Shown one piece after another: positions 3,952-48,109 of a stretch of 49,155 bases of DNA. Source of the stretch: a virus. Lineage: Duplodnaviria > Heunggongvirae > Uroviricota > Caudoviricetes. Both the position numbers and the translations under genes were made by a program. Each line of letters opens with the position of its first letter. The first letter of the stretch is position 1. The notes under the pieces are model-generated. The model was given only the letters and a program-made list of their open reading frames with translations, had not been told where the DNA came from and did not search any database. The stretch lies in the IMG/VR virus record IMGVR_UViG_647533161_000005. One strand, given 5' to 3'.

Positions 3952-4155
3952 TTACGGTGCTGTTTTAAGCCCCGCCGGGATTTCGTTATTGTCCATGTGA
4001 ATAACTTTATCGACCGGATAACAGTTGCCGGGAATTTTCTGTTCCGCTGCGGCAGCCATGCATTCTTTCATTGAGTTGTACATGCCGGTGATTGCATCAA
4101 GCGACTCACCAGTATTGAGATGTACAGTCAGAATGAGTACGAATAATGTGTTCAT
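3952..4155 (-). CDS. Small hypothetical protein with N-terminal signal-peptide-like segment
   Basis: ORF MNTLFVLILTVHLNTGESL... with GGAGAG about 5 nt upstream of the ATG at 4155; 4-nt overlap with the dicB stop. Confidence 0.45.
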   Translation of the reverse strand: MNTLFVLILTVHLNTGESLDAITGMYNSMKECMAAAAEQKIPGNCYPVDKVIHMDNNEIPAGLKTAP

Positions 4156-4340
4156 CGCCACTCTCCGAAAATACCGAGTTTAAGAAGGGCAATTCTGGAG
4201 AGTATGGAATTGTCATTCAGCAGGTAGGGTTCATATTTTCTCATATTGATTGCATCCTCGGTGAAATCCCTGTTACTGAGCAGAACACCAATATTAAAGC
4301 ACCCGTCAGACGTATTAACGTTTGGTAGTGACGTTTCCAT
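4152..4340 (-). CDS. dicB: DicB-like cell division inhibitor
   Basis: 62-aa ORF, METSLPNVNTSDGCFNIGVLLSNRDFTEDAINMRK..., matching my recollection of K-12 DicB (same length, LPNVNTSxGCFxIGV...FTEDAINxRK). Confidence 0.75.
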   Translation of the reverse strand: METSLPNVNTSDGCFNIGVLLSNRDFTEDAINMRKYEPYLLNDNSILSRIALLKLGIFGEWR

Positions 4341-4350
4341 TATCGCGTCC

Positions 4351-4908
4351 TCAACAATGAATTTTTAGCAATTGCTCCACAGTCATATTTTTAATTGCGC
4401 TCCGGTTTACAAGAGTCCATCCTTGTTTCTCCAGATAAAACCGGAAGGTATCCAGGGTGCAGACCATTGCGCCGTCAGGAACGGTTTCAGTGAATTTGAT
4501 ATTGCCGTGTTCGTCGAGACGGATAACCAGGGTGCGTCCGTCCCCGTGAATCATTTTGTCGGGAGACGGGGCGTTATTCTGGCGCAGTTCTTCCTCCATG
4601 CGATCGAACTCAGCGATGTAGGCTTCTTTGAAAGTTGCGGCTTTTTTACCTGTGAACCCCATCACCAGGAAAACGAAGCCGTTTTTGGTGATTTGGTACA
4701 TGGGGCGTTTTTCGCCTTTGGCGTCGGTGTAGGTAACGGGCGTAAAATTGCGCTCGTTAAAATCTTCAGAGCATTCTAGCGTTTCAATTTTGCGCAGAAC
4801 GTCCTTGTGCATTTTGCGGAAGAACTCTGCAACCGCAACAGACGTAGTGACAGCGCGACCATTTTCGATGGTTACGTCAGGGTGAGAAAGGGTAGGGATA
4901 GTAGCCAT
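4351..4908 (-). CDS. Rha-family phage regulatory protein
   Basis: Pattern VTIENGRAVTTSVAVAEFFRKMHKDVLRKI...KNGFVFLVMGFTGKKAATFKEAYIAEFDRME is typical of the Rha domain. Start placed at the internal ATG (4906-4908) preceded by AGAGG; the longer 4351..5205 ORF extension looks non-coding. Confidence 0.75.
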   Translation of the reverse strand: MATIPTLSHPDVTIENGRAVTTSVAVAEFFRKMHKDVLRKIETLECSEDFNERNFTPVTYTDAKGEKRPMYQITKNGFVFLVMGFTGKKAATFKEAYIAEFDRMEEELRQNNAPSPDKMIHGDGRTLVIRLDEHGNIKFTETVPDGAMVCTLDTFRFYLEKQGWTLVNRSAIKNMTVEQLLKIHC

Positions 4909-5384
4909 AATGGCAGCCTCTTGGTTGAGTATTAATAACTCACCACCAAGGTTTTCCACGACCATAAGGGTGGTGAGGCGTACAGGGGTGGAAATACCGG
5001 TCAACCAAGAATCCGGCCAGCCTTGCAGCTGCCCTGCACGCCCCACCATAATCTGAATGTGGCTGTGCTTGACGCATAAAAAAACCGCCTGAGCGCGGTT
5101 ATGCGCTTGATTGAATTCCGGGTTTCCACGCCCGGCACCCGTTTTATGAGGTGCAGGTGCACTATAATTCCACCCGTTCTGGTTTTCAATAGCTACATTC
5201 AACATTTTCTCTTACCTTTCATCACCGAAGTGAACTTTGTTGATGCGGTGCCTGGTGCCTCCAGGTGACGTTAACCAGTTAACAATTAACGCCGGATACA
5301 GAGAATCCACCCATAACACTGTTTTTGGTTTTAACTGTTCCGCGTGCGCTTAGCCGCATTCACCGCATCACAAAATTCACTTTA

Positions 5385-5437
5385 AAAAGGGTGGCAGAGC
5401 AGTCACGGAGTAGAACTGATGCCACCAAAGACTACAC
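5385..5437 (-). ncRNA. dicF: DicF-like small RNA with intrinsic terminator
   Basis: Minus-strand sequence ...CTTTGGTGGCATCAGTTCTACTCCGTGACTGCTCTGCCACCCTTTTT closely matches my recollection of K-12 DicF (TTTGGCGGTATCAGTTTTACTCCGTGACTGCTCTGCCGCCCTTTTT), with paired changes GGCGG to GGTGG and CCGCC to CCACC that keep the terminator stem. Ends are approximate. Confidence 0.6.
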
Positions 5438-5735
5438 ATGGGTATTGTGGCGGGGCTGTCACTTAAGCGTATGGTCAACCTGACAACCCGGTGCATTTTC
5501 TGGAGCAATGGAGGAAACCCCAGCCATACTTACCGCCGCGCCATTTCGCGGATTGCCACAACCGGAAGCGCACGATCGAATTAAATTTAACGACGACCTA
5601 TACAGAGAGACTAACTTCGCCGGGCGCTTTCGTGTTATGCCCTGACTTTTCAGGGATATATCCTTTTTAGTAAACTGTCAGTGCCGGATTCTTATCCGTG
5701 TCCGGCGCACGCACTCTACCTCACCTGTGAATAAA

Positions 5736-6122
5736 TTAATGATTAATTGATATTTTGTTGTTTGATTCAACTTTCCCATCGGATGTGTGATGCTTTAAAT
5801 CACAGGAATTAATACTGCTCGCTGTAAAATGATTTTCAAGGGGAGCTATTCGAATCCCTTTCTTTTTCATTAACAAGCCAAATCCTTTATTAATGATGTC
5901 CATTAATTCCAGGAAGTATTTTTCATGTAAATCCTGGTTATCAGAGAGCTGCTTCTCTTCGTACAGACCGATAAAGGCACGACGCACGTTACCGGATATA
6001 GTATCGATGGTTTCTTTTTCTACGGTACTCAGGTCAAGAGTCGCCAGTTGAGAGCGAACCACATTCGATGCCATTTCCTGGAATGGTACTGGTAAATCTT
6101 TAAATTCCATCGTCAACCTCAT
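5736..6122 (-). CDS. Hypothetical protein (early left operon)
   Basis: 128-aa ORF with ATGA overlap to the ydfA stop. An alternative ATG at 6110 (MEFKDL...) has GAGG 7 nt upstream. Confidence 0.5.
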   Translation of the reverse strand: MRLTMEFKDLPVPFQEMASNVVRSQLATLDLSTVEKETIDTISGNVRRAFIGLYEEKQLSDNQDLHEKYFLELMDIINKGFGLLMKKKGIRIAPLENHFTASSINSCDLKHHTSDGKVESNNKISINH

Positions 6123-6274
6123 CAGTCAGTGTTTCTGGTTAACCAGCGACGCGCGCCAGCTTCAGTTTGAAACGTTTTGCTTCTGGTATACGTCATCGCG
6201 GTAAACGTGCCGTCCTGGTTGGGAAACACGCCGCATACCAGAGATTCGTTGTTGCCAAGATCGATAGTATCCAT
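6122..6274 (-). CDS. ydfA: YdfA-like small protein (DUF1391 family)
   Basis: MDTIDLGNNESLVCGVFPNQDGTFTAMTYTRSKTFQTEAGARRWLTRNTD closely matches my recollection of K-12 YdfA (51 aa). Start taken at the internal Met. Confidence 0.7.
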   Translation of the reverse strand: MDTIDLGNNESLVCGVFPNQDGTFTAMTYTRSKTFQTEAGARRWLTRNTD

Positions 6275-6328
6275 GCTGACCTCATTTCCCCTTAACGCCA
6301 GGGTAGCGGAACTGTTTGCTGAGAACAC

Positions 6329-6480: not shown

Positions 6481-6888
6481 TTATTTATTTGCGCTTCTTT
6501 TGCGAGCTTTGAGTAGTTCTTCAAAAAGTTTGTTGAAATTCTCAACTCGAGCACGCATCTCTGACAACAGAGCCTTTTGCTCTGACTCAGGCAGTGCGTC
6601 GAACAGTTGAAGCAACTCTTTTTGATCTTCTGTCAGATTAACTGGCTGATTATCTGGGATCGGTTCGCCTGGTTGCTTATCTTCATCTCCAAAAAGAAGC
6701 CAAGTCGGCGAGCACTGAAGCGCCTGGCTCAGTGCGAATAATCTCTTCCCCGCTGGCTGTGTTTCATCTCTTTCCCATTGAGAAATTGTTACGTGAGCCA
6801 CTTTGACCAGCTTACCTAATGCGGCCTGAGACAGTTTTAATTTTTTACGCCTGTATAAGAGGCGAGCACCGAAGGTTTCGTTTTTCAT
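6481..6888 (-). CDS. dicA: DicA-like HTH repressor (CI/C2 analogue)
   Basis: 135-aa ORF with an HTH (LSQAALGKLVKVAHVTISQWERDETQPAGKRLFALSQALQCSPTWLLFGDEDKQP) and C-terminus ...MRARVENFNKLFEELLKARKR matching my recollection of K-12 DicA; divergent from the dicC-like gene. Confidence 0.85.
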   Translation of the reverse strand: MKNETFGARLLYRRKKLKLSQAALGKLVKVAHVTISQWERDETQPAGKRLFALSQALQCSPTWLLFGDEDKQPGEPIPDNQPVNLTEDQKELLQLFDALPESEQKALLSEMRARVENFNKLFEELLKARKRSANK

Positions 6889-6964
6889 ATTAGGTAATTC
6901 TAATTTTTCTTGACTTAGGTTTCTCTACGATCTAGTTTCCTTAGGAAAATCTAAGGAGTTCGAT
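6889..6964. promoter_or_regulatory. Divergent promoter/operator region (OR-like) between dicA and dicC
   Basis: 76-bp spacer between divergent repressor and Cro-like genes, containing TTGACTTAGGT, CCTTAGG and CTAAGG repeat elements. Confidence 0.55.
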
Positions 6965-7192
6965 ATGTTGAAAATTGATGCTATAGCGTTTTTTGGCAGC
7001 AAAACAAAGCTTGCCAATGCCGCAGGAGTTAGGCTGGCAAGCGTTGCTGCATGGGGGAAACTGGTTCCTGAAGGTCGCGCGATGCGTCTACAGGAGGCAT
7101 CCGGCGGGGAACTTCAGTACGACCCCAAAGTTTATGACGAATATCGTAAGGCAAAGCGGGCGGGGCGGTTGAACAATGAAAATCACCCCTGA
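6965..7192 (+). CDS. dicC: DicC-like Cro-type regulator
   Basis: 75-aa ORF MLKIDAIAFFGSKTKLANAAGVRLASVAAW... divergent from dicA; size, position and sequence fit DicC. Confidence 0.75.
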   Translation: MLKIDAIAFFGSKTKLANAAGVRLASVAAWGKLVPEGRAMRLQEASGGELQYDPKVYDEYRKAKRAGRLNNENHP

Positions 7193-13643: not shown

Positions 13644-13901
13644 ATACAGCGAACGCCATTGGTTTAGTTGGATATTTACTGTGCCGGACAAAAACGGTTT
13701 GCGGGGAAATCTTAGTTAAGTAGAATAACTGCGGGTGCTTGAGGCTATCTGTCTCAGGCATGAACACCAAAAGGCAGATAGAGAAAAGCCCCAGTTAACA
13801 TTACGCGTCCTGCAAGACGCTTAACATTAATCTGAGGCCATATCTATGCGACACATAGAGATTAGCCTCTTACGGACCGAAAGGTCAAGGAGAAGCAGGC
13901 T

Positions 13902-14057
13902 ATGAAGCAGCAAAAGGCGATGTTAATCGCCCTGATCGTCATCTGTTTAACCGTCATAGTGACGGCACTGGTAACGAGGAAAGACCTCTGCGAGGTACGA
14001 ATCCGAACCGGCCAGACGGAGGTCGCTGTCTTCACAGCTTACGAACCTGAGGAGTAA
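13902..14057 (+). CDS. hok: Hok/Gef-family type I toxin
   Basis: 51-aa product MKQQKAMLIALIVICLTVIVTALVTRKDLCEVRIRTGQTEVAVFTAYEPEE, matching HokD/RelF as I recall it. Below the 60-aa cut-off of the supplied ORF track. Confidence 0.85.
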   Translation: MKQQKAMLIALIVICLTVIVTALVTRKDLCEVRIRTGQTEVAVFTAYEPEE

Positions 14058-17927: not shown

Positions 17928-18228
17928 TGTGGTAAATGGGCGGCTGGTGGGTGTGGTGGTTGTTGCTTTCCCGTTGCTGAAAAAGAAAACGCCAGACTGT
18001 TAGCCGGGTATCAGTTAGCGGGAGAAATTTTTAAATACTTCACAATTCAGGCGGTTGACTGTTGTCTGGTTTGCGGGGAGTTTGTTAAAAGAAACTGGCA
18101 TGGTGAATCCCCCTGTGCGGAGGGGCAATCAGCGAGTAGGTATATGGGATAATCGCGGATTCAGGTGCTGGTACTGAATTCACCGGGAGGCACCCGGCAC
18201 CATGCAATGGCACATAGCGCCACTCTCC

Positions 18229-18255
18229 AGCCCCTCTCCGGAGGGGCTGTTTATA
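18229..18255. terminator. Hairpin terminator downstream of the minus-strand gene 18284..18619
   Basis: Hairpin agcccctc-tccg-gaggggct. Confidence 0.5.
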
Positions 18256-18283
18256 TTGATTTTGTCAGATGTGAGTAAACTCC

Positions 18284-47525: not shown

Positions 47526-48109
47526 TGGCATTCAGAATGAGTGAACAAGCACGGACCATAAAAATTTATAATCTGCTGGCCGGAACTAATGAATTTATTG
47601 GTGAAGGTGACGCATATATTCCGCCTCATACAGGTCTGCCAGCAAACAGTACCGATATTGCACCACCAGATATTCCTGCTGGCTTTGTGGCTGTTTTCAA
47701 CAGTGATGAGGCATCGTGGCATCTCGTTGAAGACCATCGGGGGAAAACGGTTTATGACGTAGCGTCAGGGGACGAGTTATTTATTTCTGAACTCGGTCCG
47801 TTACCGGAAAATGTTACCTGGTTATCGCCGGAAGGGGAGTTTCAGAAGTGGAACGGCACAGCCTGGGTGAAGGATACGGAAGCAGAAAAACTGTTCCGGA
47901 TCCGGGAGGCGGAAGAAACAAAAAACAACCTGATGCAGGTAGCCAGTGAGCATATTGCGCCGCTTCAGGATGCTGCAGATCTGGAAATTGCAACGGAGGA
48001 AGAAACCTCATTGCTGGAAGCCTGGAAAAAGTATCGGGTGTTGCTGAACCGTGTTGATACATCAACTGCACCTGATATTGAGTGGCCTACGAACCCTGTC
48101 AGGGAGTAA
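47525..48109 (+). CDS. tfa: Tail fiber assembly protein (Tfa)
   Basis: [59 protein letters not shown]... matches lambda Tfa; TAATG overlap with stf. Confidence 0.9.
47940..48109 (+). repeat. Direct repeat copy 1 (tfa 3' end)
   Basis: About 170 bp that recur at 48985..49155 with roughly 85-90 percent identity by eye. Confidence 0.7.

What the first reader, a model, noticed from the sequence alone, without database searches (positions are those of the whole stretch)
5385..5437. DicF-like sRNA with conserved terminator (compensatory changes) but divergent 5' region
The 3' half matches DicF closely, and the terminator stem differs from the K-12 version by paired substitutions (GGCGG/CCGCC to GGTGG/CCACC) that preserve pairing, which supports a functional RNA. 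The 5' portion, which in DicF contacts targets such as ftsZ mRNA, appears to differ (GTAGTCTTTGGTGG here), so target specificity may have shifted. The K-12 sequence is recalled from memory.
Basis: partly seen in the sequence, partly recalled or inferred. Interest (0 to 1): 0.5.

Follow-up and report, generated by a model that had tools for sequence, protein, structure and literature searches.

The report
DicF sRNA allele with swapped 5' seed
This is a genuine copy of the prophage small RNA DicF (minus strand) that keeps the hairpin-loop part which pairs with ftsZ but carries a different 5' single-stranded arm; about 4% of complete E. coli genomes have this allele, it is unannotated where the rows were listed, and it is one of several mix-and-match sRNA versions found at this prophage position.

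Summary
Confirmed. Rfam DicF (RF00039) matches window 5389-5440 on the minus strand over the full model, at 61.1 bits (threshold 48; K-12 DicF scores 76.7). Against K-12, the outer stem has one true compensatory pair (C-G to U-A) and one U.G to C-G change. A natural U.G intermediate exists. The 5' block is 9/33 identical, while the flanks are 91-97% identical.

Published mutagenesis places ftsZ pairing in the 3'/loop region, which is retained here, and xylR pairing in the 5' end, which is replaced here. Predicted binding energies (kcal/mol, K-12 versus this allele):
- ftsZ: -14.8 versus -11.3, kept.
- pykA: -10.5 versus -14.2, kept.
- xylR: -15.8 versus -5.4, lost.

The allele occurs in 207 of 5426 complete E. 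coli genomes, in several mosaic prophage contexts, and in no deposited phage record.

Its 5' arm (CCAUGU...) belongs to a family of 5' arms used by sister sRNAs at the same locus. Those sisters have other terminator hairpins and score below the Rfam threshold or not at all. The locus therefore looks like a modular sRNA cassette and this allele like a natural chimera.

It is a new member of a known family. Expression, the mature 5' end and any new targets are untested. Interest is moderate.

The parts
5389..5440 (-). DicF-family sRNA body (allele 'T2'): 5' single-stranded arm, bipartite terminator hairpin, final C
   Evidence: Rfam RF00039 at 61.1 bits (gathering score 48), model 1-52/52. Predicted fold -15.8 kcal/mol, with the same architecture as K-12.
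5427..5440 (-). Divergent 5' single-stranded module, CAUGUGUAGUCUUU. It replaces K-12's UUUCUGGUGACGUUU, the xylR-pairing seed.
   Evidence: The 5' block is 9/33 identical to K-12 while the flanks are 91-97% identical. It is unpaired in the predicted fold. It shares the CCAUGU prefix with the 5' arms of sister sRNAs at the same locus.
5420..5426 (-). 5' arm of the outer terminator stem (GGUGGCA). U5424 is the compensatory position and C5421 the U.G-to-C-G position.
   Evidence: Rfam structure line. Pair counts are CG:14 UA:4 UG:1 other:1 for one pair and UG:14 CG:6 for the other.
5390..5396 (-). 3' arm of the outer terminator stem (UGCCACC). A5392 pairs with U5424.
5400..5418 (-). Inner stem (CAGU 5415-5418 / ACUG 5400-5403) and 11-nt loop UCUACUCCGUG (5404-5414). 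The loop holds the anti-Shine-Dalgarno ACUCCG that pairs with the ftsZ and pykA ribosome-binding sites.
   Evidence: Identical to K-12 except U-to-C at 5413. Predicted pairing of CUCCG with ftsZ -12..-8, and of UACUCCGUGACUG with pykA -18..-5.
5384..5388 (-). U5 tail of the Rho-independent terminator (a typical Hfq-binding 3' end)
   Evidence: Read directly from the sequence. Identical in K-12.
5451..5490 (-). Conserved upstream hairpin of the precursor transcript (CGGGUUGUCAGGUUGACCAUACGCUUAAGUGACAGCCCCG)
   Evidence: The upstream block is 45/48 identical to K-12. Predicted hairpin in both sequences. It served as the anchor that recovered all allele types.
5215..5383 (-). Conserved spacer downstream of DicF. 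In K-12 this spacer leads to dicB; here it leads to the isrK-C4-Rha insert.
   Evidence: 140/144 identical to K-12.
5736..6328 (-). Upstream genes of the dicBF-type operon: a DUF1391 (YdfA-like) ORF at 6122-6328 and a 128-aa hypothetical ORF at 5736-6122. DicF lies about 295 nt 3' of the latter.
   Evidence: PGAP annotation of the identical region in strain 7/2. Pfam DUF1391, E 1.9e-27.
6481..7192 (.). Immunity switch: DicA/CI-like HTH repressor (6481-6888, minus) and divergent P22_Cro-like gene (6965-7192, plus)
   Evidence: Same layout as dicA/dicC in the K-12 Qin prophage.
4152..4340 (-). dicB (62 aa), the protein cell-division inhibitor of the same operon
   Evidence: Pfam DicB, E 1.3e-32. 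PGAP annotation.

Best explanation
The feature is a real allele of the prophage small RNA DicF. It is encoded on the minus strand inside a dicBF-type early operon of a lambdoid prophage. The gene order is repressor/Cro, YdfA-like gene, hypothetical gene, DicF, then isrK-C4-Rha, then DicB.

Shown: it has the DicF architecture. That is a short single-stranded 5' arm, a bipartite G+C-rich terminator hairpin whose 11-nt loop carries the anti-Shine-Dalgarno ACUCCG, and a U5 tail.

Inferred from K-12: it is released from the operon transcript by termination at its own hairpin plus 5' processing. It then acts with Hfq by base pairing.

The hairpin-loop module is the part that pairs with the ftsZ and pykA ribosome-binding sites, and it is essentially unchanged. 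Repression of ftsZ, and hence inhibition of cell division, and repression of pykA are therefore predicted to be kept.

The 5' module is the part that pairs with xylR in K-12. Here it has been replaced by a different arm of the 'CCAUGU...' family, which is shared with sister sRNAs at the same locus. xylR control is therefore predicted to be lost, manX pairing weakened, and an unknown set of 5'-arm targets possibly gained.

The C-G to U-A change keeps the terminator stem intact. The path went through a U.G wobble that still exists in nature.
For: - Family and structure: Rfam DicF at 61.1 bits, full length; K-12 scores 76.7. Predicted fold energy is equal to K-12, -15.8 versus -15.9 kcal/mol.
- Context: the dicBF-type operon is confirmed by PGAP annotation of 100%-identical DNA and by Pfam.
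- Stem: one compensatory pair, with the natural U.G intermediate in L157, L161 and L173.
- Which part of DicF binds which target: PMC5069750 and PMC5861419.
- Ensemble binding energies for K-12 versus this allele: ftsZ -14.8/-11.3, pykA -10.5/-14.2, xylR -15.8/-5.4, manX -14.2/-8.3. Chimeras show that xylR binding follows the 5' arm only: K-12 5' arm plus variant body gives -15.9, and variant 5' arm plus K-12 body gives -5.4.
- Sister alleles lacking the DicF loop bind ftsZ and pykA weakly, -3 to -8.
- Persistence: the allele is in 207 of 5426 complete E. coli genomes and 43 IMG/VR loci. It sits in several mosaic contexts, with or without the isrK-C4 insert, with ydfC or the 128-aa ORF upstream, and with dicB directly downstream. 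This argues that it persists through recombination.
Against: - No expression data exist for this allele.
- The 14-nt indel removes the AU-rich loop in which K-12 DicF's annotated 5' end lies. That end is attributed to RNase E in the literature, and the hairpin around it is my prediction. The mature 5' end here is therefore unknown, and the divergent arm may be longer, shorter or absent in the mature RNA.
- Neighbouring spacer DNA with no known role is as conserved as the loop (97%), so loop conservation is not evidence of selection.
- The single compensatory pair can be explained by terminator function alone.
- Binding energies are predictions made on K-12 target sequences. The U-to-C loop change and the G-to-A change in the 3' arm both fall in the predicted ftsZ duplex and weaken it slightly.
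- No genome-wide target prediction was possible.
Confidence: 0.65

Rival explanations
1. Processing variant. The divergent 5' stretch is not part of the mature RNA. With the K-12 RNase E site deleted, cleavage happens elsewhere, for example just before UUUGG. This would give a 5'-truncated DicF that acts only through its loop and 3' region, so there is no new seed, only loss of the old one.
For: - The 14-nt indel removes the AU-rich loop (CAAU|UUUCUGG) where K-12's annotated 5' end lies, together with the 3' arm of the predicted precursor hairpin.
- The only U-rich stretch left near the hairpin is GUC|UUUGG. This is judged against the RNase E preference for AU-rich single strands, which I take from general knowledge.
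- Ensemble binding to ftsZ and pykA stays favourable when the 5' arm is shuffled, though weaker: means of -8.8 and -8.4 kcal/mol against -11.3 and -14.2 for the intact allele.
Against: - Sister alleles keep a conserved CCAUGU prefix and a (C)C-UUUGG suffix around a hypervariable core. That pattern is easier to explain if this stretch is in the mature RNA and under selection.
- No cleavage data exist either way.
Confidence: 0.15
2. Relic. The locus is a decaying DicF copy that now serves only as an intra-operon Rho-independent terminator or attenuator of the early-left transcript. It has no trans-acting role, and the 5' change is neutral damage.
For: - Many E. coli genomes carry several canonical dicF copies: 7042 places in 3975 genomes. 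At least one genome carries both types (NZ_OZ392478.1). One copy could therefore drift.
- Flanking spacer is as conserved as the RNA.
- The compensatory pair is needed for termination alone.
- One natural haplotype has a broken pair (C.A, L089), which shows some tolerance of stem damage.
Against: - The divergence is confined to a roughly 20-33-nt block between 91-97% identical flanks. That looks like module replacement, not diffuse decay.
- The replacing arm is shared with, and varies among, other sRNA-like alleles at the same locus.
- The allele is found in many prophage backgrounds and in 207 genomes.
- The whole loop and U-tail architecture typical of Hfq-dependent sRNAs is intact.
Confidence: 0.15

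Closest known systems
DicF of the Qin cryptic prophage, E. coli K-12 (b1574; Rfam RF00039)
   Same: - Same position in a dicA/dicC - ydfA... - dicF - dicB operon.
- Same bipartite terminator hairpin, loop ACUCCGUGACUG and U5 tail; the hairpin plus tail is 39/43 identical.
- Above the Rfam threshold.
- Predicted ftsZ and pykA pairing is retained.
   Different: - The 5' arm is replaced: CAUGUGUAGUC instead of UUUCUGGUGACG, with 14 nt fewer upstream.
- The outer stem has C-G to U-A and U.G to C-G changes; the loop has a U-to-C change.
- The Rfam score is 15.6 bits lower.
- The 11-bp xylR duplex of K-12 (nt 5-15 with xylR +10..+20) is absent.
- An isrK-C4-Rha module sits between dicF and dicB.
The multiple dicF copies of EHEC O157:H7 (Melson & Kendall 2019, as cited in PMC7873438 and PMC9438474)
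   Same: Prophage-borne DicF copies in lambdoid prophages, and more than one copy per genome.
   Different: An O157:H7 genome (PV15-279) shows 4 places matching the canonical K-12-type query, which equals the four reported copies. No O157:H7 strain appeared among the 28 sampled rows of the 207 carriers of this allele. The studied EHEC copies therefore appear to be canonical. This is indirect: the paper itself was not available.
Sister sRNA-like alleles at the same prophage locus (here T3-T9, e.g. L175, L180, L185, L281)
   Same: - Same conserved upstream hairpin and same downstream spacer.
- Same layout of 5' arm, then GGCGG...CCGCC terminator hairpin, then U-tail.
- The 5' arm of this allele shares CCAUGU with them. 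L281's arm, CCAUGUGAAGUAGC, is the closest.
   Different: - Their hairpin loops are unrelated to DicF's and have no ACUCCG.
- They score below the Rfam threshold (43.5 and 38.8 bits) or not at all.
- They are predicted to bind ftsZ and pykA weakly.

Membership tests
DicF RNA (Rfam RF00039) | Scores at or above the family's gathering score against the covariance model, over the full length | tested here: met
   61.1 bits against a gathering score of 48, model 1-52/52, E 4.6e-11. K-12 control scores 76.7 bits.
DicF RNA (Rfam RF00039) | Bipartite Rho-independent terminator hairpin (7-bp outer stem, 4-bp inner stem, 11-nt loop) followed by a U run | tested here: met
   All 11 model pairs are standard pairs here. 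Minimum free energy is -15.8 kcal/mol, z-score -2.45. 99.1% of cells are paired across 20 haplotypes. The U5 tail is at 5384-5388.
DicF RNA (Rfam RF00039) | Loop and 3' region complementary to the ftsZ ribosome-binding site (the defining antisense function) | tested here: met
   Computational only. The ACUCCG loop is identical. Predicted CUCCG:CGGAG pairing at ftsZ -12..-8. Ensemble binding is -11.3 versus -14.8 kcal/mol for K-12, against -3.7 to -7.9 for sister alleles. The region assignment comes from PMC5069750.
DicF RNA (Rfam RF00039) | 5' seed UUUCUGGUGAC(G), which pairs with xylR codons 4-7 | tested here: not met
   Only 2 of 11 positions match in the Rfam alignment. Predicted xylR binding is -5.4 versus -15.8 kcal/mol, equal to the shuffled-arm background of -4.7 +/- 1.9. 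This feature defines the K-12 allele rather than the Rfam family, whose model marks these columns as variable.
DicF RNA (Rfam RF00039) | Located in the dicBF-type early operon of a lambdoid prophage, downstream of ydfA-like genes and upstream of dicB, under a DicA/CI-like repressor | tested here: met
   PGAP annotation of identical DNA, Pfam DUF1391, DicB, HTH_3 and P22_Cro, and comparison with Qin. An isrK-C4-Rha insert separates dicF from dicB.
DicF RNA (Rfam RF00039) | Biogenesis by termination or RNase III at the 3' end and RNase E at the 5' end; Hfq dependence | not testable with these tools
   Known for K-12 only (PMC9438474). The K-12 5'-end site is deleted here.
DicF RNA (Rfam RF00039) | Blocks cell division (filamentation) when expressed | not testable with these tools
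   Needs an experiment.

The most novel reading that the evidence does not exclude
The dicF position of lambdoid prophages is a modular, hypervariable sRNA cassette. Between a conserved upstream hairpin and a conserved downstream spacer, at least 7-10 different 5' arms reassort with at least 6 different terminator-hairpin/loop modules. Observed combinations include A+1, A+4, A+5, B+1', C+2, C+3, D+2, E+2 and F+3. The arms comprise the canonical UUUCUGGUGAC and a CCAUGU-[4-18 variable nt]-CC family.

On this reading the window's RNA is a natural chimera: a CCAUGU-family arm on the DicF hairpin. Prophages would be swapping sRNA 'seeds' to retarget host genes, in the way they swap immunity or tail-fibre modules. 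Most of these alleles are absent from Rfam, and none was annotated in the genome rows listed.
Probability: 0.45. Interest if true: 0.6.

Novelty: new member of a known kind. Interest (0 to 1): 0.38.

Why it matters
DicF is a textbook prophage sRNA that links prophage state to host cell division, sugar metabolism and, in EHEC, virulence. It is known to use two separate pairing regions.

A common natural allele, found in about 4% of complete E. coli genomes, keeps one region and swaps the other. That makes it a ready-made natural experiment on how sRNA target sets evolve. It also means strains that are 'DicF-positive' by family search need not share the same regulon; for example, xylose control may be absent.

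The wider pattern of reassorting arms and hairpins at this locus, if functional, would show that prophages diversify host-directed sRNAs by module exchange.

On the practical side, none of the DicF copies in the listed genomes is annotated. The sister alleles fall below the Rfam threshold, so they are invisible to standard pipelines.

Tried and rejected
- RNA.duplexfold on full sequences gave unrealistically long duplexes with large loops. I replaced it with ensemble dimer free energies, chimeras and shuffled-arm controls.
- I searched the window for a site complementary to the new 5' arm, allowing up to 3 mismatches. Only the gene itself matched, so there is no evident target within the prophage.
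- Melson & Kendall 2019 (PMC6628830) and Faubladier & Bouché 1994 (PMC205167) are not in the library. The latter reported dicF-like prophage sequences in other strains and may already show variant forms (from memory, unverified).
- Literature searches for DicF-like variants, alleles or seed variation found nothing describing this allele.
- The genome-contig scan with the loop core found DicF only in Escherichia and Shigella representatives and in a few MAG contigs. The hits in Nonomuraea and an archaeal MAG lack the rest of DicF and are chance matches to an 18-base pattern.
- I considered that the AUG in the CCAUGU arm starts a small ORF; here it would give MCSLWWHQFYSVTALPPFLK. I rejected this because there is no Shine-Dalgarno sequence upstream. 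In addition, the variable cores of the sister arms differ in length by non-multiples of 3, so neither frame nor stop is conserved.
- A genome-wide target prediction for the new arm could not be run, because no whole genome is accessible to the tools.
- No tRNA lies in the window.

Full report

Yes. A scan of the whole window against Rfam 15 finds DicF (RF00039) at 5389-5440 on the minus strand. The match covers all 52 model positions at 61.1 bits (gathering score 48), with E = 4.6e-11. A local permissive scan gives the same single hit.

The RNA reads 5'-CAUGUGUAGUCUUUGGUGGCAUCAGUUCUACUCCGUGACUGCUCUGCCACCC, followed by UUUUU at 5388-5384. It is 3 nt short at the 5' end and includes most of the U tail. 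The quoted string GTAGTCTTTGGTGG is minus-strand sequence.

I fetched the K-12 MG1655 gene rather than rely on memory. dicF (b1574) is UUUCUGGUGACGUUUGGCGGUAUCAGUUUUACUCCGUGACUGCUCUGCCGCCC, and it scores 76.7 bits against the same model.

**2. What differs from K-12?**

In the outer stem, one pair is changed on both sides: C-G becomes U5424-A5392. One pair is changed on one side: U.G becomes C5421-G5395. One loop base changes from U to C (5413).

Segment identities from the pairwise alignment with the Qin locus are as follows.

| Segment | Identical to K-12 |
|---|---|
| Upstream precursor hairpin block | 45/48 |
| 5' block (includes a 14-nt indel) | 9/33 |
| Hairpin plus tail | 39/43 |
| Downstream spacer | 140/144 |

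The divergence is therefore a sharply bounded replacement of the 5' single-stranded arm, not general drift. The predicted fold keeps the K-12 architecture and stability, at -15.8 versus -15.9 kcal/mol.

**3. How strong is the covariation argument?**

I collected DicF copies from IMG/VR viral contigs and species-representative genomes and reduced them to 20 distinct haplotypes. On the Rfam structure, 99.1% of cells are paired.

Exactly one pair shows double-sided change: CG in 14 haplotypes, UA in 4, UG in 1, unpaired in 1. One further pair varies between U.G and C-G.

The U.G intermediate (GGUGG/CCGCC) exists on this allele's own background, in L157, L161 and L173. A broken C.A version exists on the canonical background, in L089.

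The compensatory path C-G to U.G to U-A is thus visible in nature. It is still a single pair, and probably a single event inherited by one haplotype group. It supports a needed hairpin, but a terminator alone would need that hairpin too.

**4. Where is it?**

A 1-kb stretch around the RNA is 100% identical to many E. coli chromosomes. PGAP annotation of one of them, strain 7/2, together with Pfam, gives the following order on the minus strand:
- CI/DicA-like repressor (6481-6888), with a divergent P22_Cro-like gene (6965-7192, plus strand)
- DUF1391/YdfA-like ORF (6122-6328)
- 128-aa hypothetical ORF (5736-6122)
- DicF (5389-5440)
- conserved spacer
- isrK (5078-5154) and C4 RNA (4966-5053)
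- Rha-family gene
- DicB (4152-4340)
- DUF1482 (3952-4161)
- exonuclease, excisionase and integrase

This is the dicBF early operon of a lambdoid prophage, as in Qin, with an extra isrK-C4-Rha module between dicF and dicB.

**5. Which part of DicF does what?**

Balasubramanian et al. 2016 (PMC5069750) used mutants and compensatory mutants. They showed that the 3' region of DicF pairs with the ftsZ ribosome-binding site, while the 5' end pairs with xylR. A further mutation affects both ftsZ and pykA. Azam & Vanderpool (PMC5861419) place the manX site at the 3' end of DicF.

The part that is conserved here is the ftsZ-binding part.

**6. Predicted consequences**

I computed ensemble dimer binding free energies with ViennaRNA against K-12 target sequences. 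Target windows ran from -50 to +30 around the start codon, and to +70 for manX.

| Target | K-12 DicF (kcal/mol) | This allele (kcal/mol) |
|---|---|---|
| ftsZ | -14.8 | -11.3 |
| pykA | -10.5 | -14.2 |
| xylR | -15.8 | -5.4 |
| manX | -14.2 | -8.3 |

Chimeras show that xylR binding follows the 5' arm alone. The K-12 arm on this hairpin gives -15.9, and this arm on the K-12 hairpin gives -5.4. The background with a shuffled arm is -4.7 +/- 1.9.

In the minimum-energy dimers, K-12 nt 5-15 form 11 contiguous pairs with xylR +10..+20, and this duplex is absent for the variant. CUCCG pairs with ftsZ -12..-8, and UACUCCGUGACUG pairs with pykA -18..-5, for both alleles.

These are predictions. They say that the ftsZ and pykA functions are probably kept and the xylR function lost.

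**7. How common is it, and is it one lineage?**

- The allele is in 207 of 5426 complete E. coli genomes, at 80% or more coverage of a 91-nt query and 95-100% identity.
- The canonical allele is in 3971 of 5426 genomes, with up to 7 places per genome.
- Neither allele is annotated in the rows listed.
- None of 50,697 deposited phage records has this allele; the 22 records that match do so only over the part shared with canonical DicF.
- In IMG/VR, 43 loci carry it, with minor variants in the arm (AUGCGUAGUC, AUGUGUAGUA).
- Its surroundings are mosaic: with or without the isrK-C4 insert, with ydfC or the 128-aa ORF upstream, and with dicB directly downstream in L148, L150 and L159.
- It can co-occur with a canonical copy in the same genome, as in NZ_OZ392478.1.
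- An O157:H7 genome shows four places matching the canonical query, equal to the four copies reported for EHEC (PMC7873438). No O157:H7 strain appeared among the 28 sampled carriers. The EHEC copies studied so far therefore appear to be canonical, but this is indirect.

**8. Where does the new arm come from?**

I anchored searches on the conserved upstream hairpin instead of on DicF itself. This showed that the same slot, between the conserved hairpin and the conserved spacer CUUUUUAAAGUGAAUUUUGUG, holds a series of sRNA-like alleles.

The 5' arms seen are:
- A: UUUCUGGUGAC (canonical)
- B: CCAUGUGUAGUC (this window)
- C: CCAUGUUGAUUACC
- D: CCAUGUUGAUUGGUACC or ...UUUGUACC
- E: CCAUGUUGAGUAUUGACC
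- F: CCAUGUGAAGUAGC
- also CCAUGUUGAGGCUUGUGUGAGACC, CCAUGUUGGGAUUUACCUC and ACAGCCACUGC

The hairpins seen are:
- 1: DicF
- 2: GGCGGCAUCAG-UUUCAUUGCUGG-CUGAUGUCCGCC
- 3: GGCGGGUAUC...GAUACCCGCC
- 4, 5 and 6: three further hairpins

The combinations reassort. Counts among the fetched loci are A+1 135, B+1' 43, C+3 34, C+2 10, D+2 7 or more, E+2 3, A+4 2, A+5 1 and F+3 1.

All of them fold as a 5' arm plus terminator hairpin plus U tail. Against Rfam DicF, type A+4 scores 43.5 bits and D+2 scores 38.8, both below threshold; the others score nothing at E of 0.1 or better. Type C+3 alone is in 206 of 5426 complete genomes.

Predicted ftsZ and pykA binding tracks hairpin 1, and xylR binding tracks arm A.

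The window's RNA is therefore best described as a CCAUGU-family arm joined to the DicF hairpin. Its GGUGGC arm is also closer to hairpin 2's GGCGGC than to K-12's GGCGGU.

**9. Main uncertainty**

The 14-nt indel removes the AU-rich loop in which K-12 DicF's annotated 5' end lies, and one arm of the small precursor hairpin predicted around it. The literature attributes that 5' end to RNase E (PMC9438474).

The mature 5' end of this allele is therefore unknown. If cleavage moved to just before UUUGG, the RNA would have no 5' arm at all. No expression data were available, and no genome-wide target search could be run.

**10. Verdict**

- It is a member of the known DicF family by every testable defining feature except the K-12-specific xylR seed.
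- It is a common but undescribed allele, so I class it as a new member of a known kind, of moderate interest.
- The more interesting lead is the modular set of alleles at this locus.

Noticed in passing
window 4351-5205 (-), with isrK 5078-5154 (-) and C4 4966-5053 (-): An isrK + C4 antisense-RNA + Rha-family gene module sits between dicF and dicB; K-12 Qin has nothing there. It resembles a P1/P7 immI or Gifsy-1 isrK-anrP antirepressor control region.

The 284-aa 'Rha family' CDS called by PGAP runs straight through both Rfam RNAs on the same strand. Its residues 14-109 match Pfam Phage_ASH, while the Rha domain starts only at residue 120. Either the N-terminus is over-called (an internal Met at 'MATIPTLSHPDV' is a candidate start) or the Ash 'protein family' is a translation of RNA genes.

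A sigma-70-like promoter (TTGAAA-17-TATAGT, 5189 to 5161, minus strand) lies immediately upstream of isrK.
   Followed up: partly
IMG/VR loci, e.g. L175:1570-1619(-), L180:5167-5215(-), L185:4785-4845(-), L182, L176, L281: The dicF slot holds at least nine sRNA-like allele types, built from reassorting 5' arms and terminator hairpins between conserved flanks. Most are below the Rfam DicF threshold or undetected. Type C+3 (L185) is in 206 of 5426 complete E. coli genomes, unannotated in the rows listed.
   Followed up: partly
window 5236-5319 (-): PGAP annotates a 'DicB, incomplete, missing C-terminus' pseudogene inside the conserved dicF-dicB spacer. That spacer is 97% identical to K-12, where nothing is annotated. 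The call looks like an artefact of protein-homology calling or an N-terminally extended DicB model.
   Followed up: no
E. coli genome hits H16-H55 and H78-H97: Neither the canonical nor the variant DicF is annotated in any listed RefSeq genome ('none' under the match), even though both pass the Rfam gathering score. K-12 MG1655 is the exception, since its annotation is curated.
   Followed up: no
window 18069-18258 (+); L180:5002-5155(-), L185:4621-4775(-), L175:1376-1581(-): There is a full STnc100 match (132 bits) elsewhere in the window. In related loci the conserved spacer just downstream of the dicF slot gives weak sub-threshold STnc100 matches (30-37 bits). The two share a motif of the form CACC(U/G)GGAGGCACC(A/C)GGCACC. 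This may be a recurring RNA element of the early operons, for example a nut- or put-like antitermination site; that is speculation.
   Followed up: no
window 13733-13904 (+) and 47868-48066 (+): A hok/sok-type sok antitoxin RNA (106.7 bits) and an IS009 RNA (225 bits) are also present in the window.
   Followed up: no
L134 (Veillonella parvula MAG), L136 (Collinsella MAG), L135 (Proteobacteria MAG): Canonical E. coli-type DicF loci occur on contigs binned into unrelated MAGs. This is most likely binning contamination by E. coli prophage DNA.
   Followed up: no
NZ_OZ392478.1 (4401688-4401778 and 4814841-4814941); IMG genomes 2563366825 and 2703718818: The variant and a canonical DicF co-occur in the same genome on different prophages, so some strains express two DicF versions with different 5' arms.
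   Followed up: partly
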